Source of the DNA: Escherichia phage mEp013
Sequence record: PP180002
Reading direction: 5' to 3' (one strand)
DNA: 52,961 nucleotides
The first letter of the stretch is position 1; the number at the start of each line of letters is the position of its first letter. Positions 1,562 through 42,732 of the stretch are shown one piece after another. The notes under the pieces were generated by a model that had not been told where the DNA came from, made no database searches, and saw nothing but the letters and a program-made list of their open reading frames with translations. The position numbers and the translations under genes are program-made.

Positions 1562-2208
1562 TATCTTTTCCCCGTGTATTCAACGTGTCCGATACATCCA
1601 TCAATAATAGCTTGCGCCATATTGCGGTAGTCGCACGAAAAATCGTTGTCGCGGTTAAAGTTAATCTCTTTCGCCGCATCTTCACCGATAACCTTAGTGG
1701 CCAGTGCGAAAGCAATTTCAGCAAGTGCTTTTTCTTTCGGATCTATCCAGCGACGATACCTAAAACTACTCCATCTTGCTGTTTCTTCACATTTTCCATT
1801 CCTTCTAACAAATATCCCTAATTCATCGCCAGTAAAAATATATTTAGCCACGCAGTATACAGGGGCAAATTCTCCTGGGTAAAATTCTAGCCATACATCT
1901 AATGGTGGTCTTTCCCCTTGCTGCCATTCCTCGGCTTTTGGTTTATCGCAATCATGTCGCTCATCTTCGATTAATTCATCAATAATCTTACTTTCTTTAT
2001 TCATACCGTCATCATCCTTTTCATGGAAACGTATAAAGCGCCACGTATTAGCCATCAACGTATAAGATTCGCCACCAACCTTAGATCCTGCGTAATACTC
2101 CGTACCAAAATCGTAATAACTAGAAAACGTTGTTACTTCAAAAGGCGGAATATCAACACGGAAGCGGTGGATCATTGTTCCTATTGCAGAAGGTGTTTTG
2201 CTTGTCAT
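1561..2208 (-). CDS. hypothetical protein (215 aa), cargo next to int/xis
   Basis: Long ORF with RBS GGTGG; no recognisable motif. Confidence 0.6.
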   Translation of the reverse strand: MTSKTPSAIGTMIHRFRVDIPPFEVTTFSSYYDFGTEYYAGSKVGGESYTLMANTWRFIRFHEKDDDGMNKESKIIDELIEDERHDCDKPKAEEWQQGERPPLDVWLEFYPGEFAPVYCVAKYIFTGDELGIFVRRNGKCEETARWSSFRYRRWIDPKEKALAEIAFALATKVIGEDAAKEINFNRDNDFSCDYRNMAQAIIDGCIGHVEYTGKR

Positions 2209-2209
2209 G

Positions 2210-2371
2210 TTACGCCACCGTTACATTGTCAACTTTGATAAAGTATTCAGGGTGATTTTCTATTTCGTGCTTGAAGTGCGCGTGACACAGTCGCCAATCA
2301 CGCGCCTGATTGTGAAAATAGTAAACGTATTCGCCATCAATCTTGTATAAAATGCCTGTAGGTTTAGCCAT
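2210..2371 (-). CDS. hypothetical small protein (53 aa)
   Basis: Hand-translated MAKPTGILYKIDGEYVYYFHNQARDWRLCHAHF...; fills gap between NinB and next gene; no clear SD. Confidence 0.3.
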   Translation of the reverse strand: MAKPTGILYKIDGEYVYYFHNQARDWRLCHAHFKHEIENHPEYFIKVDNVTVA

Positions 2372-2378
2372 GTAATAA

Positions 2379-2816
2379 TTAACCATTATTGCCCCAGCGT
2401 TTTATAAATTCCTCGTTTAACTTCGTATCGCCAGACCACTGAACACCATGTTCAGCGCCGAACGAGTAGATCAGTTCGATTAATTCGCTAAATTCTGCTT
2501 TACTCATCCGGCTGGTTGACGTACCCAGCACAACAAACCCTGATTTATCCAGGTTAGGGACAACGCCATATTTCTTAAGTCCGGCAGTAAATACCGCTTT
2601 CCAATCTTCCGGTGACAGCTTTTTGCCGTACCAATTAACCTGATCGCTAACGTCTGTCAGCAGCGCCCAAAGCAACGCGTTTTGACTCAGTGAGCGTGTT
2701 TTCTCCTTGATGGTAATTACCAGTGGGCTTTTGCTATCAGGCTGGATCTCCTTTATCTGCCTGATAGCGTTTTCTTTTACGGCGTCGTTTACTATTTCAA
2801 ATCTTATCTGCCTCAT
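2379..2816 (-). CDS. ninB: NinB-family recombination protein
   Basis: 145 aa; close match in length and motifs to lambda NinB as recalled (SLSQNALLWALLTDVS, VVPNLDKSGFVVLG). Confidence 0.8.
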   Translation of the reverse strand: MRQIRFEIVNDAVKENAIRQIKEIQPDSKSPLVITIKEKTRSLSQNALLWALLTDVSDQVNWYGKKLSPEDWKAVFTAGLKKYGVVPNLDKSGFVVLGTSTSRMSKAEFSELIELIYSFGAEHGVQWSGDTKLNEEFIKRWGNNG

Positions 2817-3010
2817 AATACACCGTTGCTATTTTTCCACTGTGCCCGCGCATACATGATCGCCCGCAAAGAAATTAGGCGCGAGCTTGTCATAAAAGCG
2901 CTTTTTAAGTACCTCATATCAACCACAACAGGTTTATCAGGATCGTCGCCGCGCATGTATTCCGCAATTGTGCTTAAGTCTTCAACGGTTAAATCTAACT
3001 CTTTATTCAT
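2813..3010 (-). CDS. hypothetical protein (65 aa)
   Basis: ORF with RBS AAGGGG; ATGA-type overlap with ninB. Confidence 0.5.
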   Translation of the reverse strand: MNKELDLTVEDLSTIAEYMRGDDPDKPVVVDMRYLKSAFMTSSRLISLRAIMYARAQWKNSNGVL

Positions 3011-3019
3011 GATCGCCCC

Positions 3020-3226
3020 TTACACAATCCGCATTGTGTTTCGTAATTCACCGCGCAACGCCTGCAAAGCGTAACTAATTGGCACAAAAGCACGGTTAAA
3101 TTTTACGTGCCTGTACTTGCGCATAAGTGGAGGTGTATAAACCATCGCACCGCAAGAATTGCATGGAAATGTAAAGTGAGATTCGTCAATGAATGTTTCA
3201 ACTGAATAAAAAATTACCCGTCTCAT
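3020..3226 (-). CDS. hypothetical protein (68 aa)
   Basis: ORF in operon context; start overlaps upstream gene end. Confidence 0.45.
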   Translation of the reverse strand: MRRVIFYSVETFIDESHFTFPCNSCGAMVYTPPLMRKYRHVKFNRAFVPISYALQALRGELRNTMRIV

Positions 3227-3780
3227 AATTCCAACCCCGTTTCGCCGTTAAGTTTTTCAATCTCAAATACTGGTTTATCAGGTAGCAGGCCGTTATTTTT
3301 CCGGTATTCGTTCAGACGGCTGTCAAAGTCAAACGCCAAATCATTGGCGTGACCAAATCGACCAGGTTTAAACAGTGAGTAAAAATTAACCCCGTGTCTA
3401 TTTGGATCAACGCAAAGCGTTTCATCAATCACCATTAAACGCAGAGTACGAGAAAGATAATTCCACGGTATTCCCGTTTCAGCGCTAATGTCGCGCATAC
3501 GCTTTTTAACGCTGTAGTCACCAAATAACGACGCGACACGCTCACGACGTTCAGCATATAACTGTTTGATACGATAACCCAGCAGACGGCGGCGGCGTCC
3601 AAAACATGTATACACGCGCTCGACGATACCGTTTTTTATTAAGTGTTTAATTGTCTCAGGCAGTAACCCGTCTTTGTCATATCCAGCCAATAACCCCGTT
3701 TTATTGCGTAACTGGTGCATTGTTGCGATGCCATCAAGTTCAAGGATATTGATAACTTTTGTTTCAAGTTCAGCGCTCAT
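3223..3780 (-). CDS. hypothetical protein (~185 aa; start uncertain, ORF extends to 3816)
   Basis: ATG at 3780 has GAGG RBS; GTG at 3816 lacks one. Confidence 0.55.
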   Translation of the reverse strand: MSAELETKVINILELDGIATMHQLRNKTGLLAGYDKDGLLPETIKHLIKNGIVERVYTCFGRRRRLLGYRIKQLYAERRERVASLFGDYSVKKRMRDISAETGIPWNYLSRTLRLMVIDETLCVDPNRHGVNFYSLFKPGRFGHANDLAFDFDSRLNEYRKNNGLLPDKPVFEIEKLNGETGLEL

Positions 3781-3859
3781 TGCTTTTAGCCTCATTAAAA
3801 ACGCGATAACAGCCACCAGAAAGCGGTAAACTTTCCGGTAAGCCGTTTGCTCATATTGA

Positions 3860-5275
3860 TTAAAAAGATGCGTTATTCTGATTGTTTCGTTGGTTAAAAC
3901 GGCTTGTGCGATGATTCATTGACTGAATGCACGCGGCAGCGGCCCTGCCCTGGTCGCATGGTATGATGTTGCCGTTATCGTCAAACCGCTGGTAGACAGT
4001 CCCCGTTTTCCCGTGACGGTTTTTCGATACAATGATTTCCATATATTCGCGGGCAACAGACTGCTCATCGTAGTAGCCATCGCGGTACACCATGATGATC
4101 CTGTCAGCGTCCTGTTCAAGATTGCCGGAATCACGAAGATCCGAATTGTTAGGACGCTTGTTCGGTCGTTCCTCAACGCGGCGGGATAATTGCGCCAGCG
4201 CCAGCACCGGTACGCGCAATTCTTTCGCCATCATCTTCAACGACCATGACAATTGCCCTACGGCGAGATCATGACGTTCAGCCTTAGCCAGCTTCATCAA
4301 CCCGATGTAGTCAATCATTACCATACCCATGTTGGGATGTTCCTGTTTCATCCGTTCCGTGGTGGCGCGTATTTCCTCAACCGTTAACTGCGACGCGTCA
4401 ACGATCCACACATCAAGATTAGCAAGTGCGCTCATACCCTGGCCGACATGCGCCCACCCCTCATCATCAAGTTTTACCGGATTGCGCAGGCAGTCAGTTG
4501 ATAAATTTCCAGCGCCAGCTATGGCGCGCTCAGTCATCTGATCGAGCGACATTTCAAGCGTGAAGAACAAAACGCCAACCCGCTGATCCTTGCTGCCAGG
4601 GTAAGGGCGTTCAGCAGCAGCGCGGGCAATTGCCAGCGCCAACGCAGATTTACCAGACCCAGGGCGTCCGGCGAGAAGCACCAGATCAGTAGCGTTAATG
4701 CCGCCTAACATTTCGTCGAGTGGTTCTATCCCTGTTTTGATGTTGTCAGAATTGACACCGCACTCCATGCGCTTACTTAAAACTTCTGTGTACTCCTGGA
4801 CAGCATCGCGCAACAGAACAGGGATAATCTTGTCTTTAGTTACCTTTAATTTTGAATACCGGGAATCAAAATCTTTCATCGTCTCTTTGACGACCTCAAG
4901 CGTCCCCGTCTCCAGTTTGTAGCGCATATCGTCGATGAGTTCTAACATCTGCCGACGCTGGTGCTCTTCACGTAATAGCTGTGCGTATCCCTTCAGGTTG
5001 GCAGCAGAAGGACACGATCGCGCCGTTTGCATCAGCGGTACAAAATTTTCGTTGCCAATCTCATCACCAACCAGCAAGGCGTCGATAAGATTCCTGTTTC
5101 TGGCTTGCGCCCTGATAATTTCAAACGCACGTTTATACAGCGGAATCGTGAACACTTCAGGATCAAGAGTGGCGAGAACATCTTGCGCGTTAGGAGTTAG
5201 GCCGCCTAACAGCAGCCCGCCGATAACTGACGCTTCACGTTCCTGCCGTAGTGAGTTTATTTGCTCAGTTACCAT
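3860..5275 (-). CDS. replicative DNA helicase, DnaB family
   Basis: 471 aa; DnaB N-terminal signature SVIGGLLLG and Walker A GRPGSGKS. Confidence 0.9.
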   Translation of the reverse strand: MVTEQINSLRQEREASVIGGLLLGGLTPNAQDVLATLDPEVFTIPLYKRAFEIIRAQARNRNLIDALLVGDEIGNENFVPLMQTARSCPSAANLKGYAQLLREEHQRRQMLELIDDMRYKLETGTLEVVKETMKDFDSRYSKLKVTKDKIIPVLLRDAVQEYTEVLSKRMECGVNSDNIKTGIEPLDEMLGGINATDLVLLAGRPGSGKSALALAIARAAAERPYPGSKDQRVGVLFFTLEMSLDQMTERAIAGAGNLSTDCLRNPVKLDDEGWAHVGQGMSALANLDVWIVDASQLTVEEIRATTERMKQEHPNMGMVMIDYIGLMKLAKAERHDLAVGQLSWSLKMMAKELRVPVLALAQLSRRVEERPNKRPNNSDLRDSGNLEQDADRIIMVYRDGYYDEQSVAREYMEIIVSKNRHGKTGTVYQRFDDNGNIIPCDQGRAAAACIQSMNHRTSRFNQRNNQNNASF

Positions 5276-5293
5276 TATGTCATTACCTCATGT

Positions 5294-6412
5294 TTACAAA
5301 ATGGAAAATTCAGGGTAATAAACAAAGCGCCCGATCTCCCCATGATCCGGGCTGTAAATAATAACCGCTGCCAGACGCCGCGACCGCCAGCCGCCATTAG
5401 TTGAGTAAGCGTCTTTACCCGCTAACGTGCCGTGATACTCAACAACGCCTAACGATGATTCGATTAGCCGTTGATGGTGCCAGTGCCCGCAATGAGCGTA
5501 AACCGCCGCAGACTTGCCAAAATCCTCACGCCAGTCAGCTACGCAAGCAGACAATAAATTTTCCGGCTTTTTGATAGTGTGCCCGTGGTGGTAAGCAAGG
5601 AATGTTTTTCCGTACTGTGTGTGGTGGACGATGGCAGGGGACACATCAACCGTCACGCGCGGTTCATCTTCGTAAAAAGCAGCCAGCGCCGCACGTAGCC
5701 AGATCATTCCTGACTGGTCGTGATTGCCGGATAACACCTGGATTTCAACATCCTTATGATTTAATAACATCTTCCCTACCGCCCGCCGGACCGACCGGAT
5801 CGCTACATAAACAAGTTTTGCGTAGCGACTATCTTGATCAAGAATGTGCCCGCTTGTTGGAGTCACCGGGACCATGCCGTCAGAGTGAAGCAGATCCCCA
5901 CCGAGAAGCAATACAGCTTTTTCAGACATCGGCGCAGCGCCTACAGCGTAGTCAAAGAAGTCATTCAACACGCGCTCAGCAATCCCAGTGTCGTAGCTCT
6001 CGCCACATTCGGCTTTATGAGCAAGCGCCCCGATATGCAGATCAAATACCGGATAAAGGGCCAGGCTTTTTTGAAAATCAATTTCAGGCACTGGCACGGC
6101 ATCCGCGCGTGGTATTTCCTCCGTGAATGCGTCGCAGGCAGCTTCCATTAGCCTTTCCATTTCATCACGGTCACGGGCTGTTTTAATCCAGCGCATGATC
6201 ACATTGCCGTTCTTATCGACTAGTAACGACTCGCCATTGACGCCAAAACCAGGCGCGCGGCGTGTTGACAATAAACCGCGTTTAGCCAGCTTTGCGCCAA
6301 GACGCTCGACGTTGCGTTTTGACATGCCATATTTTTCGGCGATCTGTTTATACGTTAAACCATTGTTATATTCAGCGATCAATTGCTCATCGCTGATTTT
6401 TCTTTGTGACAT
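5294..6412 (-). CDS. HTH domain fused to calcineurin-like metallophosphoesterase
   Basis: N-terminal HTH (LTYKQIAEKYGMSKRNVERL); phosphoesterase motifs GDLLHSD, SGNHD, GHWHH; RBS GAGGA. Confidence 0.75.
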   Translation of the reverse strand: MSQRKISDEQLIAEYNNGLTYKQIAEKYGMSKRNVERLGAKLAKRGLLSTRRAPGFGVNGESLLVDKNGNVIMRWIKTARDRDEMERLMEAACDAFTEEIPRADAVPVPEIDFQKSLALYPVFDLHIGALAHKAECGESYDTGIAERVLNDFFDYAVGAAPMSEKAVLLLGGDLLHSDGMVPVTPTSGHILDQDSRYAKLVYVAIRSVRRAVGKMLLNHKDVEIQVLSGNHDQSGMIWLRAALAAFYEDEPRVTVDVSPAIVHHTQYGKTFLAYHHGHTIKKPENLLSACVADWREDFGKSAAVYAHCGHWHHQRLIESSLGVVEYHGTLAGKDAYSTNGGWRSRRLAAVIIYSPDHGEIGRFVYYPEFSIL

Positions 6413-6445
6413 AGTGTTATTTCCTCTGGTTTACATTTTGTATAT

Positions 6446-6982
6446 TCATTGACAGCAAACAATCTCTTTATATGCCTCTTCTACCATGTCGAATACTTCC
6501 GGCCTGTAATAGAAAAACTCATTGCTGCCATCAAATTTTACAGGAAAGTTAATTTTATAATTGCTGAAATATTTATGCATCGTGCTTTCTAGTTTATGTA
6601 TATTTTCGGTTGACCCTTCTAACGTTTTCACGATACACAAATCAGGGATTCTAACGCCTGCTTTATGTGCGCTTTTTAATATTTCATTTCTTCGCTCGTT
6701 ATCCTTAACGCTTACACCGATTTTCATTTGTGTAGGTAATTCCAGATCATCAACCATGATGTAAAGTTTGCCATACTCATAACTAAGGAAACCGTATTTC
6801 GCGCATTTTGGGCAGCCGCGCCCGCGCTTAAGGTCGCTAGGAGTAGCCGACCACTCATGATCACAAACCTTACAGCGGCATGATACTTTTGTTTTGCAAT
6901 TGATAATTTCTCCCAACACTTCAACATTGGGGTTAATTCTTGAGATAGCGGCAACTTGCTCCTTATGAGTTAACTTGCGCAT
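6446..6982 (-). CDS. zinc-ribbon plus GIY-YIG-like (T5orf172/MUG113-type) protein, single-repeat paralog of 39479..40789
   Basis: One LTHKEQVAAI..C.C..C.HEW..GCPKC repeat then GKLYIMVDD..KIGVS..ERRN..EFFYY domain shared with the 436-aa protein; ATG at 6982 has RBS AGGAG. Confidence 0.7.
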   Translation of the reverse strand: MRKLTHKEQVAAISRINPNVEVLGEIINCKTKVSCRCKVCDHEWSATPSDLKRGRGCPKCAKYGFLSYEYGKLYIMVDDLELPTQMKIGVSVKDNERRNEILKSAHKAGVRIPDLCIVKTLEGSTENIHKLESTMHKYFSNYKINFPVKFDGSNEFFYYRPEVFDMVEEAYKEIVCCQ

Positions 6983-7115
6983 TGTCATAGCTCCTAAAAA
7001 CGCATCAGACGCGCTACAACGCAAAAAATCCCACCGCGTAACCCACTTGTAAGGGTGCAGTGTCTTTTTTGCGCCAGAAGCGCAATCAGGTGGCTAATTT
7101 TTGATTTACAGACTG

Positions 7116-7217
7116 GTAGGTATGTTATGGATTGACTAGAAGGAACAAACCGCCGAACAAAGCGACGTTAACAGCAATTGCCGCAGCGATGGCAAAAGCC
7201 AGGGCGAAAACGTGTTT
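7116..7217 (-). CDS. small hydrophobic membrane peptide (33 aa)
   Basis: Hand-translated MDGKHVFALAFAIAAAIAVNVALFGGLFLLVNP; RBS GAGAGGA; below the 60-aa ORF-track cutoff. Confidence 0.4.
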
Positions 7218-7359
7218 ACCGTCCATTTTTAAATCCTCTCTGTAACGCTCTATAACGAGCTAATCGCAAAAAGGTATGCAAGTGTAGCACCCAATGCTTT
7301 TTAGCTCGCTGGTGAGCTTGTTTTGTGGGTAATTTTGGATTTTTGTGTATTGTGGTTGG

Positions 7360-8358
7360 TCAAAGAGCGCCAGCGCGTGTATCACGTAGCGTTTTTGGTT
7401 TAAGCAGGAAATCAAGTGTCGCAGTAAAGCCATTGCCGAAGTAAAAATCTGAAGCCGTGTTTTTGAACGTTTCGAAGTAGGCAACAAAGCCGTTAATGCT
7501 TTTATCTTTCAGGTAGTCAGTGAACGCATAGATCTTTCGTTCAAGATCCCGATCCAGTTCAGCAGGTGGCAACAGGCCATCAAACGTGATGTTAAACTCT
7601 TCCACCACATCGGCAGCGCTTACAGTAGCTGTAACTCTTCGCCATTGTTCAGCCTTTGCCCGGTATTCATCAAAGCGGCTTACCCTGGCGATCTTTATCG
7701 GTTCCGGTTTAAACGACCATGTTTCCGCTATCCAGTCGATAACCATGATCAAATCTTCTTCAGTATATGCGCCTCGTGTTTTTGTTTTCTTCAGTAGGTT
7801 AACAAAGTATTTTTTCTCCTTATGCTTGCTATTAAACTTGTTGTTATAGTGATCGAGTACGCGCGACGCTGCCAAATCAGCCGCCCGATCTTCTTCGCTG
7901 ATAGACTCGTCTTTTTCCAATACACGAAGTGTATTGTTTTTAATGTTCTCTTTACTGGTTATATATGACTGGTTAGGGTGACTCTGTGACACTACCCCCG
8001 GTGACTCTGTGTCACTACCCTGGTGACTCTGTGACACTACCCCCGGTGTCACAGTGACACTACCATGTAATGACGGGAGGACTATTACATAGAAATTACT
8101 AGTTTGCTCTTTTCCTCCGATCAAGTATCTTGGTTGTTTAATCAACAACCCTTTTTCACAAAGTGAGTCTACAGCCCTCATAGCTGTTCTTTTGCTGATC
8201 TCACACTCCTTTGCTATGTGATGGTAAGAAGGGTAACACTCGCCGTTATCATTAGCGTTATCAGCTAACTTCAACAGCACTAGTTTGTGCATTGGGTCGC
8301 CGACCTCAGTATGGAAGACTTCTACCATTAGCCGCATACTCATAAGCATTAACCTCAT
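7360..8358 (-). CDS. replication initiator, lambda O-like (phage replisome organiser N-terminal domain) with internal iterons
   Basis: N-terminal wHTH (ISKRTAMRAVDSLCEKGLLIK); in-frame repeated GVVSQSH peptide encoded by four 22-bp iterons; start not resolved (8358 vs downstream ATGs). Confidence 0.75.
   Translation of the reverse strand: MRLMLMSMRLMVEVFHTEVGDPMHKLVLLKLADNANDNGECYPSYHHIAKECEISKRTAMRAVDSLCEKGLLIKQPRYLIGGKEQTSNFYVIVLPSLHGSVTVTPGVVSQSHQGSDTESPGVVSQSHPNQSYITSKENIKNNTLRVLEKDESISEEDRAADLAASRVLDHYNNKFNSKHKEKKYFVNLLKKTKTRGAYTEEDLIMVIDWIAETWSFKPEPIKIARVSRFDEYRAKAEQWRRVTATVSAADVVEEFNITFDGLLPPAELDRDLERKIYAFTDYLKDKSINGFVAYFETFKNTASDFYFGNGFTATLDFLLKPKTLRDTRAGAL
7977..8066. repeat. four ~22-bp iterons GGTGACTCTGTGACACTACCC inside the O-like gene (candidate origin of replication)
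   Basis: Direct repeats at 7977, 8000, 8022, 8045, each with an internal inverted GTGAC/GTCAC; mirrors lambda ori inside O. Confidence 0.7.
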
Positions 8359-8364
8359 GACGAA

Positions 8365-8610
8365 CTAAAACATTAACTGATAAACACAGAAGAAACCTGG
8401 CAGCTGACTGATTAGGCCGCTTCTTTTCAGTTGATGCAGTGCAGAGATAGTGTCACGTAACGAAATTTCGCACATTTCAGCGATTTCTTCCGGCGTTACT
8501 TCGCTTTTGCCGTTGCATCCGGCCTTTGTTGCCAGTGCAATTAAGATGAGTTTTTGCGTCGGATCATTGTTATTCAGGCGAATATCAAAAGCCTTGCGAA
8601 CGTAATACAT
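8365..8610 (-). CDS. Cro-position winged-HTH DNA-binding protein (81 aa)
   Basis: First gene divergent from cI; RBS AGGAGAAAG; aligns with N-terminal domain of the O-like protein (DP.QKLILI..EISLRD); may be Cro- or CII-like. Confidence 0.55.
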   Translation of the reverse strand: MYYVRKAFDIRLNNNDPTQKLILIALATKAGCNGKSEVTPEEIAEMCEISLRDTISALHQLKRSGLISQLPGFFCVYQLMF

Positions 8611-8915
8611 GTTTCTTTCTCCTATGGTTAGGTGAACGCGCGGGCGGGTATCCAATTAGCATTAGATAGCAGTGACTGACCGCTGAACAGATCCCGCCGT
8701 TGCGTGATATTTGTTTTTCGCTTCGCAGCGACACCGGGTTTTTAAAGAGCTTTTAAGGTATGTGCCTTTTGTGCTTTCCCTTATCTCTTTCCTTGCATCA
8801 TTGCAAGTTCGGCTTTACCTTGTCTGTAAGTTTACAGAATGGCGTTAACAGATCAAGGATTGAAAATTACATTTTGTGACTTGCATCAAAATTTTTTAGG
8901 TTATAGGGTAGCGAC

Positions 8916-9563
8916 ATGAAAACAAAATGGTATGACCTGGCAAAACAACTCATGCGGGCGCAGGGCATGAGTCAAGATTCATTGGCAGATCTCATGGGGA
9001 TCACTAAAGGCGGCTTGTCACACTGGCTTAACGGTCGCCGCGAGCCAAATCTTGAAGACATTGCGCGGATTATGCGGGCGCTTGGGCGTCGGCAGTTCAC
9101 TGTCACACATGATGGAATGGTCATTGATGACTCTGTTTCTAACACGTTGCCGGGAGCGCCACCGCGTGATTTAGGCAGTTACCCGGTTGTTGACTGGAAG
9201 GATGTAGTAAACAATATGGAAGATGCAAGGCGATCAACATTACCACACGTTACGACTAGCGTTATTTGTTCAGATGATAGTTATTGGCTGGTAGCTAAAG
9301 GCGAATCAATGAACGCGCCGCAAGGATTGAGTATACCAGCGGGGACGATGATACTTGTCGATCCGCACGCGCCAGCTATTGACGGAAAACTGGTTATAGC
9401 CCAACTGGAGGAGGGGCAGATACCGACGTTTAAACAGTTGATTATTGATGGAGGCAGAAAACTTTTGCGTTCACTGAATCCGTTGTATCCGCCAATCCCT
9501 ATGAATCCAGAATCTAAAATCATAGGCGTGGTAGTGGATGCGAAGATCGTAAACCTGCCATAA
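8916..9563 (+). CDS. cI: CI-type repressor (HTH_XRE plus S24 LexA-like peptidase domain)
   Basis: N-terminal HTH (MSQDSLADLMGITKGGLSHWLNG); C-terminal autocleavage domain with GESM Ser and downstream Lys. Confidence 0.85.
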   Translation: MKTKWYDLAKQLMRAQGMSQDSLADLMGITKGGLSHWLNGRREPNLEDIARIMRALGRRQFTVTHDGMVIDDSVSNTLPGAPPRDLGSYPVVDWKDVVNNMEDARRSTLPHVTTSVICSDDSYWLVAKGESMNAPQGLSIPAGTMILVDPHAPAIDGKLVIAQLEEGQIPTFKQLIIDGGRKLLRSLNPLYPPIPMNPESKIIGVVVDAKIVNLP

Positions 9564-10171: not shown

Positions 10172-10294
10172 ATGGTTATTCATGCGCTCCAATTCAAACT
10201 GGCGGTAGCGGAAATGCTTCATGATGCCGAAATGTGGAGCGCCGCGAATAAAGCCTTGTATGTAGTGTTAACAGCGAAGGAGATCAAAGAGTGA
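10172..10294 (+). CDS. hypothetical small protein (40 aa)
   Basis: Hand-translated; strong RBS GGAGGTG; stop overlaps erf GTG start. Confidence 0.45.
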   Translation: MVIHALQFKLAVAEMLHDAEMWSAANKALYVVLTAKEIKE

Positions 10295-10932
10295 AAACAG
10301 AGTTACACAAAAAACTGTGGACGATTCAGCAAACGCTGAATGCACCAAAAGGGCAATACAATAAATTCGGTGGATATTCATACAGATCTGCGGAGGATAT
10401 TTTAGAGGCAGTTAAGCCACTTCTACAGAATGTCACGTTAATGGTTAGCGATGAAATTGTTTTAATCGGTGATCGCTATTATGTGAAAGCAACGGCAACG
10501 CTAAGCGACGGCGAGGATTCAATTTCAGCCACTGCGTTCGCGCGTGAGGAAAAAGAGCAAAAAGGAATGACGGCAGGGCAGCTAACTGGCGCGACATCAA
10601 GTTACGCGCGGAAATATGCCCTGAACGGTCTGTTCTGTATAGACGATGCGAAAGATTTAGACACTGACGCTTACGCGAAGCAGACAGGCCAGCAGCCTCG
10701 CCAGCAGAAAAACACACCAAAACAACAACCACAGCAGCAGAAAGCGCAGCCAAATCCTGATGAAGTATTAGCACGTTTCTGTGATGCAGCAGCGAAAGCG
10801 CCTGATGCTAATAAGTTACGCGAGATCTTCGGCAAGTGCTGGAAGCTGTTACCTGAAAATTCAGAGCAACGAGTCAAAGCAAAAGATATTTACCAAATAA
10901 GGCTTGAGGAGTTAAATGGAAGTATTAACTAA
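10291..10932 (+). CDS. erf: Erf-family single-strand annealing protein
   Basis: LNAPK.QYN.FG.Y.YRS.EDILE.VKPLL N-terminal pattern as in P22 Erf (from memory); Q/P-rich C-terminus; RBS AAGGAG with GTG start. Confidence 0.75.
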   Translation: MKTELHKKLWTIQQTLNAPKGQYNKFGGYSYRSAEDILEAVKPLLQNVTLMVSDEIVLIGDRYYVKATATLSDGEDSISATAFAREEKEQKGMTAGQLTGATSSYARKYALNGLFCIDDAKDLDTDAYAKQTGQQPRQQKNTPKQQPQQQKAQPNPDEVLARFCDAAAKAPDANKLREIFGKCWKLLPENSEQRVKAKDIYQIRLEELNGSIN

Positions 10933-11524
10933 GACATGTAATAAATGCGGTAGGCGACTACCGCTTGATTGTTTTCCTAAACATAAAGGCTGCAAATATG
11001 GTGTTACTAGCACATGCGTTGAGTGCACTAAAATAAGCGTGAAAGCATTTAGGGAAAGGAATAAAGATAAAATAGCTGAACGAAATAGAAAATGGAGGGA
11101 AGAACATAAGGAAGAGATACGAGAGAAAGATAAGAAATACTACGAAGAACATAAGAAAGAATGTAATGATCGCGCGAAAAAATATAGAGAAAACAACAGG
11201 AAGAAAATTATAGAATATAAAAATGATTGGGTTAAAAGAAACGAAGAAAGATTGAAGGAGTACCGGAGAATATATCACGAAGATTATAAAGAAAGAAATA
11301 AGGCTGAACTAAAAGCAAGAACAAAACTAAGTAACGCCATTAGAGATGGCAAGATATTTAGGCCTGATAGGTGTGATCGTTGCGGAAATAAATGTACTCC
11401 TGATGGTCATCACTGGAATTATGCGTTTCCGCTTAACGTTATTTGGTTATGTAGATCTTGTCACAAAATAGTTCATGTTAAATTCGGGTGTATCCACGAA
11501 GATATTAACGGGGAGATCAATTAA
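10916..11524 (+). CDS. HNH endonuclease-like protein
   Basis: Cys-rich N-terminus; lysine-rich centre; C-terminal CDRCG..HHWNY..WLCRSCH HNH-type motif. Confidence 0.6.
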   Translation: MEVLTKTCNKCGRRLPLDCFPKHKGCKYGVTSTCVECTKISVKAFRERNKDKIAERNRKWREEHKEEIREKDKKYYEEHKKECNDRAKKYRENNRKKIIEYKNDWVKRNEERLKEYRRIYHEDYKERNKAELKARTKLSNAIRDGKIFRPDRCDRCGNKCTPDGHHWNYAFPLNVIWLCRSCHKIVHVKFGCIHEDINGEIN

Positions 11525-11988
11525 TGAGCTTAAATTCAATCACGCTGGGTGGTAACGTTGGTAACGATCTTGAAGTGCGCTACACGCAAAACGGGAAGGC
11601 GATTGGTAGTTTTCCGTTAGCTGTAACGAATGGCTACGGTGATAATAAGCGGACAATGTGGATCACTTGCCTGGTATTTGGTGAGCGTGCGGAAAAATTA
11701 GCTCCACATATCCGCAAGGGTGGAAAAATAGTGGTAAGCGGTCGCCTGGATGTTCGGCAATATGACCGGAACGACGGCACGAAGGGGACTGCGGTAGAAG
11801 TGGCGGTTAACGAATTTGAATTCATGAATGTTAACCAACAAGGCCAGCAGCAAGGACAGCAGCAGAAAGCGCCGCCGCAGCAGCATAATAATAACGGGAA
11901 TAATGTTCCTCCTGATTTCGATGACGACATCCCATTTGCTCCTATGGGGTTACAATATGGCAAAAGCAGGATCTACGCGCTATCTTGA
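11524..11988 (+). CDS. ssb: single-stranded DNA-binding protein
   Basis: OB-fold SSB pattern, Gln/Gly linker, acidic tail DDDIPF. Confidence 0.9.
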   Translation: MSLNSITLGGNVGNDLEVRYTQNGKAIGSFPLAVTNGYGDNKRTMWITCLVFGERAEKLAPHIRKGGKIVVSGRLDVRQYDRNDGTKGTAVEVAVNEFEFMNVNQQGQQQGQQQKAPPQQHNNNGNNVPPDFDDDIPFAPMGLQYGKSRIYALS

Positions 11989-19061: not shown

Positions 19062-19240
19062 AAAACGAAATTAAAGATCTGCAAATAGATATTCAGCGCG
19101 ATGAGCATGATTTAGCTACAGTCAGACAAATCCAGGCTTTCCACATGAGAGAACTGCTTGCGCTGAAAGAGCTTGAAAGAAAGTTGGTCCAATCAATATC
19201 TGATCGTAAACGTCTGGTTGCTCGTTACGGGGGCAAATAA
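19058..19240 (+). CDS. hypothetical protein (60 aa, coiled-coil)
   Basis: ORF coupled between rusA and Q. Confidence 0.45.
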   Translation: MKNEIKDLQIDIQRDEHDLATVRQIQAFHMRELLALKELERKLVQSISDRKRLVARYGGK

Positions 19241-19962
19241 TGAATCTGGAATCAATTCTTAAATTCCACTTCCCAAAATCACCGCGTTTGTCAGATGAAA
19301 GCCGTGGCACGTCCCCGGATGCTCTTAATACTACTGATGCACTAACTGCCGCAGGTATGGCGCAATCGCGCGTAGAGCTTGGTTACAGCGCTTTTTTAGG
19401 GAAGATGGAACTATCACAAGCCGAAAAGCACAGGGCCGTAGTTTTGCTTACAGAGCGTTTAATGGCTATGGCAAAAGATTATGAATACGTTATGGAACTG
19501 GACGAGGCCAAACGCAATGATCTCATTATTCTTATTGCCGTTTTCGCGTTTCGGGATTATTGCCAGAGCGCCGCGACGGAAAAAACTTGTATGGAGTGCG
19601 GCGGATATAAATTTACGTTTGACGAATACGGGGAAAAACACCTTTGCAAAAAATGTAAGGGGCATGGGAAAGTTCTTAATCATTGCAAACAATGCAAGGG
19701 CCGTGGCGAAGTACCGGATAAAGCAGCCAGTGAAGCGGCGGAAATGCCAGTGTTCAAAACGTGCCAGCACTGCGGCGGGCGAGGGTACTCGCGTTTCCCT
19801 GTAGATCTTGTCCGGCAGGCTGTTAATCAGCTTGTTTTTCCGGTAAGCCGATCAACATGGTGGAAAAAATACCGGGTTTTCTATGAAGACGCCATTGCTG
19901 AATTGTTCAAAGAAGAGGCGCGGGCTGATAACGAAATTAAGCAGGTGACGCGGGGTGAATGA
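19240..19962 (+). CDS. Q: late antiterminator Q (lambda-type)
   Basis: Matches lambda Q as recalled (LESILKFHFPKSP, AAGMAQS, CQSAAT, zinc-finger CxxC..CxxC, GYSRFP). Confidence 0.8.
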   Translation: MNLESILKFHFPKSPRLSDESRGTSPDALNTTDALTAAGMAQSRVELGYSAFLGKMELSQAEKHRAVVLLTERLMAMAKDYEYVMELDEAKRNDLIILIAVFAFRDYCQSAATEKTCMECGGYKFTFDEYGEKHLCKKCKGHGKVLNHCKQCKGRGEVPDKAASEAAEMPVFKTCQHCGGRGYSRFPVDLVRQAVNQLVFPVSRSTWWKKYRVFYEDAIAELFKEEARADNEIKQVTRGE

Positions 19963-39478: not shown

Positions 39479-40789
39479 TTACGCTGCTTTTATAATTTCT
39501 TCATACTTATCTTCCACCATGCTAAAAACTTCTGGTCTATAGTAGAAAAATTCGCAACTACCATCAAATTTTACGGGGAAGTTAATTTTGTAATTACTAA
39601 GTTTTTTGTGTATCGCGCCCTCTAGTTCAAAGATATTTTGTGTCGGACCTTCTAATGTTTTTACGATATGTAAATCAGGAATTGTCACACCAGCCTTATG
39701 TGCACTGCTTAGTATTCTATTCCTTCGTTCGTTTTCCTTAACACTTACCCCTACTTTCATTAGCGTTGGCACTTCCATATCGTCAACCATGATATAAAGT
39801 TTGCCGCGTTCGTAGGATAAAAAACCTTTTTTCGCACATTTTAAACATCCGCTACCTCCTTTAAGTTTTTGCGGCGTGGTTCTCCACTTATAGCCACACA
39901 CTTTACATAGACACGATACTTTGGTTTTGTTTCCTGTTATCTTACCAACAACTTTGATATTAGGGTTGATGTTGGCAATGGCTTTTATTTGTTCTTCATG
40001 CGATATTCTTCGCGCTTGTGCTCTTTTTGATGCCGCGCACTTCGGGCAACCAGTGCCTTTTTTAAGGCTGGCTGGAGTAGTTAACCATTCATGACCGCAA
40101 TACTTACAGCTGCATAACGTCCTTGTAGTATTGCTAATAATTTTCCCTAACACCTCAACGCCAGGGCTAGTTTTCGCAATAGCTGTAACCTGTTCTTTGT
40201 GTGATAATTTCATCTTCCCTGAACATTTCGGGCAGCCAGTACCATGCTTGAGATTATTTGGAGTGGCTGACCATTCATAATTGCAAATCTTACATTTGCA
40301 TAATACGTTTTTTAAACTTGAAGTAATTTTTCCCAAGATTTCAATATTGCTGTTAACCTTCGCAATGGATGCAACTTGTTCTTCATGCGTTAATCTTCTA
40401 TCTGTACATTTCGGGCAACCTTGCCCGATTTTAAGTGTTTCAGGTCTAGCCATCCATTCGTGATTACAAACCTTGCAATGGCATAATACTTTTGTTTTAT
40501 TATTAATAATTTTCCCTAATACCTTAACATCAGGATTAACTTTAGCAATAATTGCAATCTGTTCTTCATGTGGTAATGCTCGTTTTTGCGCTCTTTTTGA
40601 TGCCGCGCACTTCGGGCAACCAATACCACGCTTAAGATCAGCAGGTCTACCAAACCATTCGTGATTACAAGTTTTGCAGCAGCATGATACTTTTTCCATA
40701 TTCCCGGTAATTACCCCTATCACCTCGATGTTGGGGTTAACTTTTGCAATGGCGGCAACTTGTTCTTCGTGTGTTAATTTTTTTGTCAT
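39479..40789 (-). CDS. five tandem zinc-ribbon repeats plus GIY-YIG-like (T5orf172/MUG113-type) C-terminal domain
   Basis: Five ~62-aa repeats (L.HEEQ.A.IAKVNP...C.C..C.HEW...GCPKC) then GKLYIMVDD..KVGVS..ERRN..EFFYY domain; paralog of 6446..6982. Confidence 0.7.
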   Translation of the reverse strand: MTKKLTHEEQVAAIAKVNPNIEVIGVITGNMEKVSCCCKTCNHEWFGRPADLKRGIGCPKCAASKRAQKRALPHEEQIAIIAKVNPDVKVLGKIINNKTKVLCHCKVCNHEWMARPETLKIGQGCPKCTDRRLTHEEQVASIAKVNSNIEILGKITSSLKNVLCKCKICNYEWSATPNNLKHGTGCPKCSGKMKLSHKEQVTAIAKTSPGVEVLGKIISNTTRTLCSCKYCGHEWLTTPASLKKGTGCPKCAASKRAQARRISHEEQIKAIANINPNIKVVGKITGNKTKVSCLCKVCGYKWRTTPQKLKGGSGCLKCAKKGFLSYERGKLYIMVDDMEVPTLMKVGVSVKENERRNRILSSAHKAGVTIPDLHIVKTLEGPTQNIFELEGAIHKKLSNYKINFPVKFDGSCEFFYYRPEVFSMVEDKYEEIIKAA

Positions 40790-41754: not shown

Positions 41755-42108
41755 ATGCCGGAAGTTTTCAGATGGACGCCGCAAAGAAGCTACAGCGTGA
41801 CCAGGGAACCAAATGTGTCGGTCGTTAAACTTGGTGATGGTTATGAACAGCGCCAGGCGAAAGGGATTAACACGTTGCTTGATAGCTACACCCTGGTTTT
41901 TAAAGGCAGTAGCGCAGGATGCGGTGATAGTGGGAACGTGGCGATCCAGGCAGAAGCATTCTTGAGGGCGCGCGGCGCTGTCGAGGCTTTTTACTGGTCG
42001 CCGTCTATGGATGGAGTGCAAAGGCTTTTTGTTTGCCGTAGCTGGAGTATGACAAAGGACGGGCCTGTATACACGCTAAACGCAACATTTGAGCAAGTTG
42101 TCAGCTAG
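41755..42108 (+). CDS. M: minor tail protein, lambda gpM-like
   Basis: 117 aa; matches lambda M pattern as recalled (FRWTP, KLGDGY.QR, F..A.GA...FYW.P, FEQVV). Confidence 0.8.
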   Translation: MPEVFRWTPQRSYSVTREPNVSVVKLGDGYEQRQAKGINTLLDSYTLVFKGSSAGCGDSGNVAIQAEAFLRARGAVEAFYWSPSMDGVQRLFVCRSWSMTKDGPVYTLNATFEQVVS

Positions 42109-42119
42109 TGGGGGTTAAT

Positions 42120-42305
42120 ATGTACGGGACTTGTGTAGTGGACAAAACTGACGCTTTTACATTGTTTGACGACTACGAGATCAACGACCTTACTGTAAAG
42201 GCTGACAATGGCGATACCTGGTATCTTCATGATGTTGGTGACGGGTATGTGGGATGCAGATCCAGGGAAGGCAAGGAGGTTTTATTTTTGGTTGATGGCG
42301 TATAA
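42120..42305 (+). CDS. hypothetical protein (61 aa)
   Basis: ATG at 42120 with RBS GTGGGGG. Confidence 0.4.
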   Translation: MYGTCVVDKTDAFTLFDDYEINDLTVKADNGDTWYLHDVGDGYVGCRSREGKEVLFLVDGV

Positions 42306-42308
42306 TAA

Positions 42309-42336
42309 CAACCCCGCTTCGCGCGTGGTTTTCTTT
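42309..42336 (+). terminator. terminator-like hairpin (imperfect copy of the J terminator)
   Basis: AACCCCGC-TTCG-CGCGTGGTT (one stem mismatch) plus TTTTCTTTT; part of 36-bp repeat shared with 49833-49868. Confidence 0.4.
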
Positions 42337-42380
42337 TAGTAGTTAATATGCATCAAACTCATTGGGTGAGCGTGCGCCAT

Positions 42381-42473
42381 ATTATTGGCTATCGCCGCCC
42401 AGTCCCAATCGGCAGCATGAACGCCAAATACTATCAGTCCCATTATTATTAGCGCCAAAACTTCTATTTTCAT
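42381..42473 (-). CDS. hypothetical small hydrophobic peptide (30 aa)
   Basis: Hand-translated MKIEVLALIIMGLIVFGVSCCRLGLGGDSQ; RBS AGGTGA. Confidence 0.3.
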
Positions 42474-42483
42474 AATCTGTCAC

Positions 42484-42732
42484 CTATAAGTTATCACGCA
42501 GGTAATTAACGCCCTTATCAGTGACGAATGAATGGTTGACCTGGTTTTCATCCGTCATGATGACGAATAACTTTTCCTGTAGGTATTTCGCTTTCGGGTA
42601 CAGTGTTAAACAGACCTGGTACAGTATCCCGCGCTCAATCAGCAAATCAATAAATTCGTGCTCATGATAACCGATGAGGCGGGCGGCCTGTTTCAACGTG
42701 TACACATAATCACCGTGATTGCGCCGCGCCAT
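42484..42732 (-). CDS. hypothetical protein (82 aa), possible HTH
   Basis: RBS AGGTGGGA. Confidence 0.5.
   Translation of the reverse strand: MARRNHGDYVYTLKQAARLIGYHEHEFIDLLIERGILYQVCLTLYPKAKYLQEKLFVIMTDENQVNHSFVTDKGVNYLRDNL

What the first reader, a model, noticed from the sequence alone, without database searches (positions are those of the whole stretch)
5294..6412. HTH fused to a metallophosphoesterase in the replication operon
The 372-aa protein between DnaB and the zinc-ribbon paralog combines an N-terminal HTH with intact calcineurin-like phosphoesterase motifs (GDLLHSD, GNHD, GHWHH). A DNA-targeted phosphoesterase here could be a nuclease or a signalling-nucleotide hydrolase involved in replication or counter-defence.
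Basis: partly seen in the sequence, partly recalled or inferred. Interest (0 to 1): 0.4.

Follow-up and report, generated by a model that had tools for sequence, protein, structure and literature searches.

The report
Phage HTH-fused metallophosphoesterase (T1 gp16 family)
This is a real phage gene that joins a small DNA-binding domain to an intact metal-dependent phosphodiesterase. It belongs to a very common but never-tested phage protein family (phage T1 gp16), most likely a DNA-cutting enzyme, so it is an untested member of a known family rather than a new kind of system.

Summary
Window 5294-6412 (- strand) encodes a 372-aa protein with an N-terminal three-helix HTH and a C-terminal calcineurin-like metallophosphoesterase (MPE). 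All five motifs are intact. The gene sits between a zinc-ribbon/T5orf172 gene and DnaB in the early operon of an mEp554/mEp021-like temperate coliphage.

It is not a novel fusion. It matches PHROG 704 end to end ("DNA repair exonuclease", E 5.6e-141) and is 57% identical to phage T1 gp16. Homologues occur in 2038 of 50,697 phage records and in 4409 50%-identity clusters. I found no functional study of the family.

The link to replication genes is specific to this lineage. DnaB is adjacent only in the mEp group, and no partner gene is conserved across 69 subgroups.

Fold searches place it nearest Mre11/SbcD, the MJ0936 phosphodiesterase and PolD DP1. It has no capping domain and no Rad50 partner. 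All eight metal and catalytic residues are intact in 388 of 400 members.

The closest functional analogue is T5 A1, which has a DNA-binding N-terminus and an MPE and is necessary and sufficient for host DNA degradation. Specific homology to A1 is not shown.

Best reading: an HTH-tethered DNA phosphodiesterase (nuclease). A signalling-nucleotide hydrolase role has no specific support. Interest is modest.

The parts
5294..6412 (-). Complete HTH-MPE gene (372 aa plus stop), the orthologue of mEp554_11 / mEp021_11 and of T1 gp16
   Evidence: ORF. 96% aa identity to mEp554. PHROG 704 at E 5.6e-141. 57% identity to T1 ST16.
6281..6391 (-). N-terminal three-helix HTH (residues 8-44), sigma-70 region 4 / LuxR-GerE-like
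   Evidence: AF2 helices 8-16, 21-27 and 32-44 with pLDDT 83-86. Weak Pfam HTH hits in the query and strong ones in homologues. Family profile vs PDB GerE at E 0.0055.
6125..6250 (-). Family-specific beta-hairpin (residues 60-77; G69 and W75 nearly invariant) plus helix (79-96), linking the HTH to the MPE core
   Evidence: Secondary structure. Conservation. In most distant homologues the conserved core starts at about residue 50-58.
5297..6064 (-). Calcineurin-like metallophosphoesterase domain (residues 117-372). It runs to the C-terminus, so there is no capping domain.
6029..6046 (-). MPE motif I, F-D124-L-H126-I-G
   Evidence: D124 conserved in 398/400 and H126 in 399/400 family members.
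5879..5902 (-). MPE motif II, G-G-D173-L-L-H176-S-D (GDxxH type)
   Evidence: D173 conserved in 400/400 and H176 in 394/400. DNA read.
5825..5878 (-). Family-specific conserved loop, residues 179-196 (VTPxSGHxLDxDxR), modelled with low confidence. Candidate substrate-binding element.
   Evidence: T184 399/400, D192 394/400, R196 395/400. pLDDT below 50 for residues 179-193.
5717..5728 (-). MPE motif III, G-N230-H231-D232
   Evidence: N230 and H231 each conserved in 399/400.
5579..5590 (-). MPE motif IV, H-H276-G-H278
   Evidence: H276 conserved in 399/400.
5474..5488 (-). MPE motif V, G-H310-W-H312-H
   Evidence: H310 conserved in 390/400 and H312 in 398/400.
3860..5275 (-). DnaB-family replicative helicase, the downstream gene in the operon (context only, not a conserved partner)
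   Evidence: DnaB_C at 3.4e-76. Adjacent to the MPE gene only in the mEp group.
6446..7024 (-). Zinc-ribbon plus T5orf172/MUG113 (homing-endonuclease-like) gene, the upstream neighbour (context only)
   Evidence: Paralogue at 39479-40789.
7360..8358 (-). O-like replication initiator that heads the replication part of the operon (context only)
   Evidence: HTH_36 at 4.9e-15; PHROG 428, 8540 and 345.

Best explanation
The gene encodes a stand-alone, catalytically active binuclear-metal phosphodiesterase. Its N-terminal helix-turn-helix holds it on DNA, making it an HTH-tethered, Mre11/SbcD-like DNA nuclease that works without a Rad50-type ATPase.

It is transcribed during lytic development with the O-like initiator and DnaB from the early operon facing the CI-like repressor gene. 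I infer that it cuts or resects DNA to favour phage replication. The target could be host chromosomal DNA, for nucleotide supply and host shut-off as with T5 A1 and mycobacteriophage gp48. It could also be DNA ends or branched intermediates that feed the phage's Erf, NinB and Rap recombination functions.

Shown here: the domain architecture, the intact active site under strong purifying selection, the MPE fold with nuclease-type nearest neighbours, and the lack of any obligatory partner gene.

Inferred: that the substrate is DNA, that the HTH binds DNA, and what the enzyme does during infection.
For: - Architecture and active site: all five motifs are present in the query. All 8 metal and catalytic residues are intact in 388 of 400 full-length members.
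- DNA-binding module: N-termini of diverse members match many different HTH families, while the core from about residue 55 is conserved. This suggests selection for a DNA-binding module as such.
- Gene context: the family lies in or at the end of DNA and nucleotide-metabolism modules. Neighbours include helicase, VRR-NUC and Dam upstream in T1-like phages, dNMP kinase in 10 of 69 subgroups, and a PNKP-type 3'-phosphatase adjacent in 4 of 18 viral subgroups.
- T5 A1 precedent: it has an N-terminal DNA-binding domain and a C-terminal predicted metallophosphatase. It is necessary and sufficient for host DNA degradation (bioRxiv 10.64898/2026.04.02.716235; 10.1101/2022.08.27.505566).
- Mycobacteriophage A10ZJ24 gp48 precedent: this MPE degrades DNA in vitro and host DNA in vivo (PMC12287305).
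- Motif class: GDxxH in motif II and GHxH in motif V fit the phosphodiesterase/nuclease branch rather than PPP protein phosphatases. This rests on my own knowledge of the superfamily and was not tested here.
Against: - No biochemical or genetic data exist for any member of this family.
- Sequence-level links to Mre11/SbcD are not significant (E 0.38-1.3).
- The link to T5 A1 is weak: hhalign probability 17%, or 37.8% on the trimmed MPE domains.
- There is no capping domain and no Rad50/SbcC gene.
- The phage is temperate. Unrestrained host-chromosome destruction from an early operon would conflict with lysogeny, so wholesale host-DNA degradation is doubtful for this member (inference).
- DNA binding by the HTH is untested.
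Confidence: 0.5

Rival explanations
1. It is an RNA or nucleic-acid end-healing enzyme. In this reading the MPE is a 2',3'-cyclic phosphodiesterase or 3'-phosphoesterase. It acts with a PNKP-type 3'-phosphatase to repair RNA or DNA ends damaged by host anticodon nucleases or other defence nucleases.
Against: The window phage has no HAD_PNKP or dNMP kinase homologue (tblastn found nothing better than E 5). In T1 the two genes are 35 kb apart. An HTH is not expected on an RNA-repair enzyme. No RNA ligase was seen among the recurrent neighbours.
Confidence: 0.12
2. It is a replisome accessory factor. Either it is a PolD-DP1-like 3'-5' exonuclease, or it is a DnaB-associated factor that takes the slot occupied by the helicase loader in lambdoid replication modules.
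Against: DnaB is adjacent only in the mEp group; two other subgroups have a DnaB 2.6-4.5 kb away. T1-like and Jersey-like phages carry the gene far from any DnaB, next to lysis or tail genes. In mEp021 an HNH gene separates it from dnaB. P22-type initiator-plus-DnaB modules are known to work without a loader (my own knowledge).
Confidence: 0.1
3. It is a signalling-nucleotide hydrolase used for counter-defence, degrading cyclic oligonucleotides or similar immune messengers.
Against: A conserved DNA-binding HTH has no obvious role for a small-molecule hydrolase. The gene is a persistent core gene (508 of 522 Drexlerviridae, PMC13164509), not an accessory gene that comes and goes. There was no PADLOC or literature link. 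The known anti-CBASS and anti-Pycsar enzymes have other folds (my own knowledge).
Confidence: 0.08
4. It is primarily a transcription regulator. In this reading a sigma-70 region-4-like HTH protein switches on or times late-gene expression, and the MPE domain acts as a sensor or has a secondary role.
For: The HTH resembles sigma-70 region 4 and GerE. In many genomes the gene lies immediately upstream of late genes. Endolysin is the commonest neighbour (16 of 69 subgroups), and large terminase or portal genes lie 2.7-4 kb downstream in 6-7 subgroups. In T1 it precedes the lysis cassette.
Against: The active site is under near-absolute conservation, which points to catalysis as the selected function. 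In the window the gene lies mid-operon, far from the late genes, and the phage has its own Q-like antiterminator at 19240-19962. In Jerseyvirus it is embedded in the tail cluster on the opposite strand.
Confidence: 0.06

Closest known systems
Phage T1 gp16 (ST16, YP_003929.1) / PHROG 704 'DNA repair exonuclease', also annotated 'putative phosphoesterase'; a core gene of Drexlerviridae
   Same: Full-length homologue with the same HTH, hairpin and MPE architecture. It is 57% identical to T1 gp16 and matches PHROG 704 end to end. All active-site residues are shared.
   Different: The genomic setting differs. In T1-like phages the gene sits at the end of the early DNA-metabolism genes, just upstream of holin-endolysin-spanin. 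Here it lies between a T5orf172 gene and dnaB in a temperate phage. Neither protein has been characterised; the 'exonuclease' name comes from annotation transfer.
Phage T5 A1 (pre-early protein)
   Same: It has an N-terminal DNA-binding domain and a C-terminal predicted metallophosphatase whose fold resembles Mre11 and PolD-type nucleases. The MPE motifs are colinear: D304-x-H306, H339-D340, N396-H397-D398, H476 and G500-H501-x-H503 are invariant in the A1 family. Many A1 relatives carry Pfam HTH domains (PF13384, PF13936, PF02796).
   Different: A1 is 556 aa and has a roughly 230-residue middle region that is absent here. Specific homology is not established: hhalign probability is 17% for the full profiles and 37.8% for the trimmed MPE domains. 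A1 works with A2 in second-step DNA transfer and is highly toxic. This phage is temperate and has no A2-like setting.
Mre11 / SbcD nucleases
   Different: There is no capping domain, because the protein ends with the MPE core. No Rad50/SbcC gene is in the window or among the recurrent neighbours. Sequence similarity is not significant (E 0.38 or worse). An N-terminal HTH is present instead.
Mycobacteriophage A10ZJ24 gp48 (Cluster A phage MPE)
   Same: It is a phage-encoded, stand-alone MPE made early in infection. It has phosphodiesterase and DNase activity and damages host DNA (PMC12287305).
   Different: Motif I lies at the very N-terminus (D10), so no HTH precedes the catalytic core. I did not compare its sequence with this family.
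PolD small subunit DP1 and the eukaryotic polymerase B subunits
   Different: They act as subunits of a dedicated polymerase. No PolD-like catalytic subunit was seen in the window, and the recurrent neighbours include no polymerase.

Membership tests
Calcineurin-like metallophosphoesterase superfamily | Five conserved motifs: DxH, GDxx(D/H), GNH(D/E), H, GHxH | tested here: met
   D124-x-H126, G-D173-LL-H176, G-N230-H231-D232, H276 and G-H310-x-H312 are present. They are conserved in 388 of 400 members.
Calcineurin-like metallophosphoesterase superfamily | Beta-sandwich MPE fold | tested here: met
Calcineurin-like metallophosphoesterase superfamily | Match to Pfam PF00149 or PF12850 above the gathering score | tested here: not met
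   The query has no Metallophos hit at E<=0.01. 9 and 8 of 51 homologues hit at E down to 2.7e-5. This means the family is divergent, not that it lies outside the superfamily.
PHROG 704 / T1 gp16 family | Full-length profile match and the shared HTH-hairpin-MPE architecture | tested here: met
   E 5.6e-141, residues 4-368 on profile positions 2-387 of 390. 57% identity to T1 ST16. Alignments A1 to A3.
Mre11/SbcD nucleases | Nuclease (MPE) domain closest in structure | tested here: inconclusive
Mre11/SbcD nucleases | C-terminal capping domain next to the active site | tested here: not met
   The MPE core runs to residue about 365 of 372, leaving no room for another domain.
Mre11/SbcD nucleases | Partner Rad50/SbcC ATPase encoded alongside | tested here: not met
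   All ORFs of 400 aa or more in the window are DnaB, integrase, large terminase, portal, tape measure, tail J, tail fibre or a homing-endonuclease-like gene. No such family is among the recurrent neighbours in 147 loci.
Mre11/SbcD nucleases | Significant sequence homology | tested here: not met
   Family profile against the PDB: T. maritima SbcD/Mre11 at E 0.38-1.3.
T5 A1 family | N-terminal DNA-binding domain plus C-terminal metallophosphatase | tested here: met
   Query architecture. A1 architecture from the literature and the motifs I read.
T5 A1 family | Profile-level sequence homology | tested here: inconclusive
   hhalign probability 17% over 65 columns covering motifs II-III. Probability is 37.8% on trimmed domains, with motifs III-V colinear.
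T5 A1 family | Causes host DNA degradation and toxicity | not testable with these tools
   Needs expression and infection experiments.
Tri-helical HTH (sigma-70 region 4 / LuxR-GerE type) | Three-helix bundle with a recognition helix, and a Pfam match | tested here: inconclusive
   Three confident helices in the model. The query's Pfam hits are below the gathering scores. Homologues reach 1.5e-9 and 2.4e-8. The family profile matches GerE at E 0.0055. DNA binding itself is untested.
Known anti-defence nucleotide hydrolases or defence proteins | Match to a catalogued defence or counter-defence family | tested here: not met
   No PADLOC model matched. Literature searches found no link for this family.

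The most novel reading that the evidence does not exclude
The T1 gp16 / mEp gp11 family may be the counterpart, in T1-like, Jersey-like and mEp-like phages, of T5 A1. That would make it a DNA-anchored metallophosphoesterase nuclease that on its own dismantles or selectively cuts host DNA.

Because it also sits in the early operon of temperate phages, its swappable HTH would have to direct or restrain the cutting, for example to particular sites or structures. That would define a very widespread class of HTH-guided MPE nucleases, found in more than 2000 sequenced phages. As with A1 and retron Ec67, such a protein could also be a trigger sensed by host defence systems.
Probability: 0.2. Interest if true: 0.55.

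Novelty: new member of a known kind. Interest (0 to 1): 0.3.

Why it matters
The family is one of the most persistent genes of Drexlerviridae (508 of 522 genomes) and is common in Jerseyvirus, Vibrio phages and many proteobacterial prophages. These groups include many candidate therapeutic phages for Klebsiella, E. coli and Salmonella. Yet no member has been tested, and the 'DNA repair exonuclease' label is only annotation transfer.

If it is a DNA-tethered nuclease like T5 A1, it would explain how T1-type phages break down host DNA. It would also be a likely determinant of host takeover, toxicity and sensing by defence systems. For this particular window it adds no new biology: this is an ordinary member in a lineage-specific position.

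Tried and rejected
- Conserved partner gene: neighbourhood clustering over 147 loci in 69 MPE subgroups found none. Endolysin, HNH, dNMP kinase and NinB are the commonest neighbours, none present in more than 16 of 69 subgroups.
- DnaB or replication linkage as a family trait: rejected. Adjacency occurs only in the mEp group.
- Rad50/SbcC partner: none in the window or in the neighbourhoods.
- Defence-system relationship: no PADLOC hit.
They covered the domain names, Drexlerviridae, T1-like phages, SECphi27, escaper and anti-defence terms, and the PHROG and protein accessions. They found only genome annotations. Two candidate papers, on retrons and Druantia, did not concern this gene. The Vibrio 'exonuclease' retron escapers involve a different, RNase T-type protein. 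In Metis, the defence protein MisA is itself a metallophosphatase, and the phage escapers map to T4/T6 denA rather than to this family.
- Specific homology to T5 A1: hhalign reached only 17-38% probability, so I treat A1 as an analogue, not a relative.
- Sequence-level link to solved structures: none significant for the MPE part.
- Promoter and terminator scan of 2000-9200: counts were at or below chance, so there is no evidence for an internal transcription unit.

Full report

Yes. The ORF at 5294..6412 on the - strand is 372 aa long and starts with ATG. An AGAGGAA Shine-Dalgarno-like sequence lies about 9 nt upstream. The dnaB start follows 18 nt after its stop, and the upstream zinc-ribbon gene ends 33 nt before its start, so the three genes are packed as in an operon. 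A simple promoter and terminator scan of 2000-9200 found nothing above chance inside this block.

The five metallophosphoesterase (MPE) motifs are all present: D124-x-H126, G-D173-L-L-H176, G-N230-H231-D232, H276 and G-H310-W-H312.

The query itself does not reach Pfam Metallophos even at E 0.01. Its N-terminal HTH hits (Rrf2, Sigma70_r4_2, HTH_IclR, HTH_28, HTH_36) are all below Pfam's gathering scores. Independent evidence supports both assignments:
- Among 51 diverse homologues, 9 hit PF00149 and 8 hit PF12850. The N-termini hit Sigma70_r4_2 (best 1.5e-9), GerE (2.4e-8) and many other HTH families.
- The family profile matches the GerE structure at E 0.0055.
- An AlphaFold2 model (mean pLDDT 75.7, pTM 0.64) shows three helices at residues 8-44 with pLDDT 83-86. 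A beta-hairpin (60-77) and a helix (79-96) follow, and an alpha/beta domain runs from residue 117 to the C-terminus.

DnaB lies at 3860-5275 (DnaB_C 3.4e-76). A treble-clef zinc-finger plus T5orf172/MUG113 protein lies at 6446-7024, and its paralogue at 39479-40789 is 66% identical.

**2. What genome is this?**

The region is 91.5-92.5% identical at the DNA level to the Mexican coliphages mEp010, mEp044, mEp554, mEp515 and mEp021. The protein is 96% identical to mEp554_11. These phages form the 'mEpimmI' group of Nus-dependent, non-lambdoid temperate phages (PMC11893012). That paper does not discuss this gene, which is annotated 'hypothetical protein'.

The window carries an integrase (117-1385) and a CI-like repressor (8916-9563). 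The leftward early operon, in order of transcription (genes at descending coordinates), is:
- a small HTH protein (8365-8655);
- an O-like initiator (7360-8358);
- the zinc-ribbon/T5orf172 gene;
- the HTH-MPE gene;
- DnaB;
- a MarR-like protein (3223-3816);
- NinB (2379-2816).

The window also encodes an Erf-like annealing protein, an endonuclease-VII-like protein, SSB, NinG/Rap and a Q-like antiterminator.

**3. How common is the protein?**

It is very common.
- It matches PHROG 704 ('DNA repair exonuclease') end to end at E 5.6e-141.
- tblastn finds it in 2038 of 50,697 phage records, with at least 80% coverage in 1984. The main hosts are Escherichia (559 records), Klebsiella (468), Salmonella (373) and Vibrio (254).
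- An exhaustive HMMER search finds 4409 clusters at 50% identity with E<=0.001, of which 936 have E<=1e-30.
- The phage T1 orthologue is gp16 (ST16, YP_003929.1), at 57% identity.
- Homologues also occur in presumed prophages of many alpha-, beta- and gammaproteobacteria.
- 35 of 5426 complete E. coli genomes carry it, annotated 'hypothetical protein'.

Names in the databases range over 'putative phosphoesterase', 'DNA repair exonuclease', 'Rrf2 family transcriptional regulator', 'DNA polymerase II small subunit' and 'serine/threonine protein phosphatase'. All of these are annotation transfers. I found no experimental paper on any member.

**4. Is it tied to replication?**

Not as a family trait.
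- In T1-like phages the gene closes the early DNA-metabolism block (helicase, VRR-NUC, Dam and others) and precedes the lysis cassette.
- In Jerseyvirus it lies inside the tail cluster on the opposite strand.
- In Vibrio phages it lies between lysis and head genes.

I clustered all ORFs from 147 loci that represent 69 MPE subgroups at 80% identity. No neighbour family is present in more than 16 subgroups. The commonest are endolysin (16), HNH endonuclease (14), dNMP kinase (10), NinB (8), a large helicase (7) and large terminase (7). DnaB is directly adjacent only in the mEp group.

In four of 18 viral subgroups a stand-alone PNKP-type HAD 3'-phosphatase follows the gene, often with a dNMP kinase. 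The window phage has neither.

No Rad50/SbcC-like gene appears in the window or among the recurrent neighbours. The protein is therefore an autonomous unit that usually travels with DNA and nucleotide-metabolism genes. Homing-endonuclease-type genes (HNH, T5orf172) frequently sit next to it.

**5. What does the protein look like functionally?**

The active site is under near-absolute conservation. Of 400 full-length members, 388 keep all eight metal and catalytic residues tested (D124, H126, D173, N230, H231, H276, H310, H312). It is therefore an enzyme, not a degenerate scaffold like Vps29 or the polymerase B subunits.

Two further loops are equally conserved but modelled with low confidence. 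They are residues 179-196 (VTPxSGHxLDxDxR) and 331-346 (KDAYxxxGGWxSxR). I take them as candidate substrate-binding elements; this is an inference.

Across the family the first 50 or so residues vary and match different HTH families. Conservation starts at about residue 55. This suggests that a DNA-binding module of some kind is required, while its specificity may differ between phages.

Fold searches give the following.
- By Foldseek, the first 11 PDB hits are all Mre11/SbcD, including DNA complexes (E 1.6e-7 to 3.5e-5). Vps29, Rv0805 and PolD follow.

These scores are at the generic MPE level. Sequence profiles do not link the domain significantly to any solved protein (SbcD E 0.38). The protein lacks the Mre11 capping domain. 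It therefore works like a nuclease-type MPE but is not a member of the Mre11/SbcD family.

**6. Functional precedents**

Two phage MPEs have experimental support as DNA-degrading factors.

[quoted passage not shown] Four of five retron-Ec67 escape mutations map to the DNA-binding domain (10.1101/2022.08.27.505566). [quoted passage not shown]
- **Mycobacteriophage A10ZJ24 gp48.** This is a stand-alone MPE with phosphodiesterase and DNase activity. It degrades host DNA and is required for killing M. tuberculosis (PMC12287305).

I read the MPE motifs in the A1 sequence myself and found them invariant in 23 A1 relatives. Many A1 relatives have N-terminal Pfam HTH domains. A1 is thus an architectural parallel to the window protein.

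Profile-profile comparison gives only 17% probability for the full profiles and 37.8% for the trimmed MPE domains, with motifs III-V and the C-terminal strand colinear. A specific evolutionary relationship is therefore not established. I treat A1 as an analogue.

**7. Most likely mechanism**

I commit to an HTH-tethered, metal-dependent DNA phosphodiesterase (nuclease) that acts alone, with confidence about 0.5. The step-by-step estimates below are my own judgement:
- an active phosphodiesterase: about 0.9;
- the substrate is DNA: about 0.55;
- the role is bulk host-DNA degradation in the T1-like members: about 0.25, and lower for this temperate phage.

Early expression of an indiscriminate chromosome-destroying enzyme would be hard to reconcile with lysogeny. 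For the mEp phage, a more restricted activity seems more plausible (inference). Examples are end or branch processing that feeds the Erf, NinB and Rap recombination functions, or cutting directed by the HTH.

The rivals are an RNA or DNA end-healing phosphoesterase working with the PNKP-type phosphatase (0.12), a replisome or DnaB accessory (0.10), a signalling-nucleotide hydrolase (0.08) and a transcription regulator (0.06). About 0.14 remains unassigned.

**8. Novelty and verdict**

The finding is accurate but not new in kind. The fusion is the standard architecture of a large, catalogued and already loosely annotated phage family (PHROG 704 / T1 gp16). Its position next to dnaB is a peculiarity of the mEpimmI lineage.

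What remains interesting is that so persistent a phage gene has never been characterised, and that its architecture parallels T5 A1.

- Novelty: new member of a known kind.
- Interest: 0.3.
- Most novel reading not excluded: a widespread class of HTH-guided MPE nucleases that carry out host-DNA attack in T1-type and related phages, and that must be controlled in temperate ones (probability about 0.2; interest if true 0.55).

Noticed in passing
window 6446-7024 (-) and 39479-40789 (-): Two paralogous genes share 66% identity over the zinc-ribbon plus T5orf172/MUG113 part. The second copy carries four extra tandem zinc-ribbon repeats and sits in the tail region on the opposite strand to its neighbours. 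They look like a homing-endonuclease-like mobile gene present twice. The first copy gives a weak PADLOC PDC-S57 hit (E 4.8e-5).
   Followed up: partly
window 3860-6412 versus its flanks: GC content steps up here. dnaB is 50.8% and the HTH-MPE gene 50.5% (its MPE part 52.0%, its HTH part 40.9%). The adjacent zinc-ribbon gene is 39.9% and the whole window 45.7%. This suggests the dnaB-MPE segment, or the MPE core, has a different origin from the rest of the phage.
   Followed up: no
other phages: L006 (T1) 42028-42510, L007 (mEp021) 4636-5139, L005 6208-6717: HNH endonuclease genes lie immediately next to the MPE gene in T1, mEp021, a Vibrio phage and others (14 of 69 subgroups). In mEp021 the HNH gene separates the MPE gene from dnaB. 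This fits homing endonucleases targeting a gene that is conserved between co-infecting phages.
   Followed up: partly
L003 (Klebsiella phage Sushi) 7161-8227 and related loci: In Webervirus and three other subgroups, a stand-alone PNKP-type HAD 3'-phosphatase follows the MPE gene (annotated 'polynucleotide kinase' but lacking a kinase domain), together with a dNMP kinase. This looks like a small nucleic-acid or nucleotide processing cassette. It is absent from the window.
   Followed up: partly
T5 A1 relatives (P0343, P0345-P0347, P0349, P0373, P0385): Proteins 45-48% identical to T5 A1 over 87-88% of A1's length carry N-terminal Pfam HTH domains (HTH_23, HTH_38, HTH_7, HTH_31, CENP-B N-terminal domain). 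The A1 family therefore also has swappable HTH N-termini.
   Followed up: partly
window 7025-7359: A 335-bp gap separates the O-like initiator gene from the zinc-ribbon gene. In mEp554 the equivalent stretch is annotated with two tiny ORFs (mEp554_13 and mEp554_14). Weak terminator-like hairpins lie on the - strand at about 7149-7195. This could be an origin or a regulatory region.
   Followed up: no
window 10291-11988 (+): An Erf-like annealing protein, an endonuclease-VII-like zinc-ribbon protein and SSB lie together. No cognate Exo/RecE-type exonuclease was detected among the proteins I scanned. T1, by contrast, has RecE plus Erf as well as the MPE.
   Followed up: no
window 5294-6412 versus virulent phages: This temperate-phage protein is 66% identical to those of virulent Drexlerviridae (Warwickvirus) and 72% identical to a protein of Salmonella phages ST44/ST65. 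The gene has evidently moved between temperate and virulent phages.
   Followed up: no
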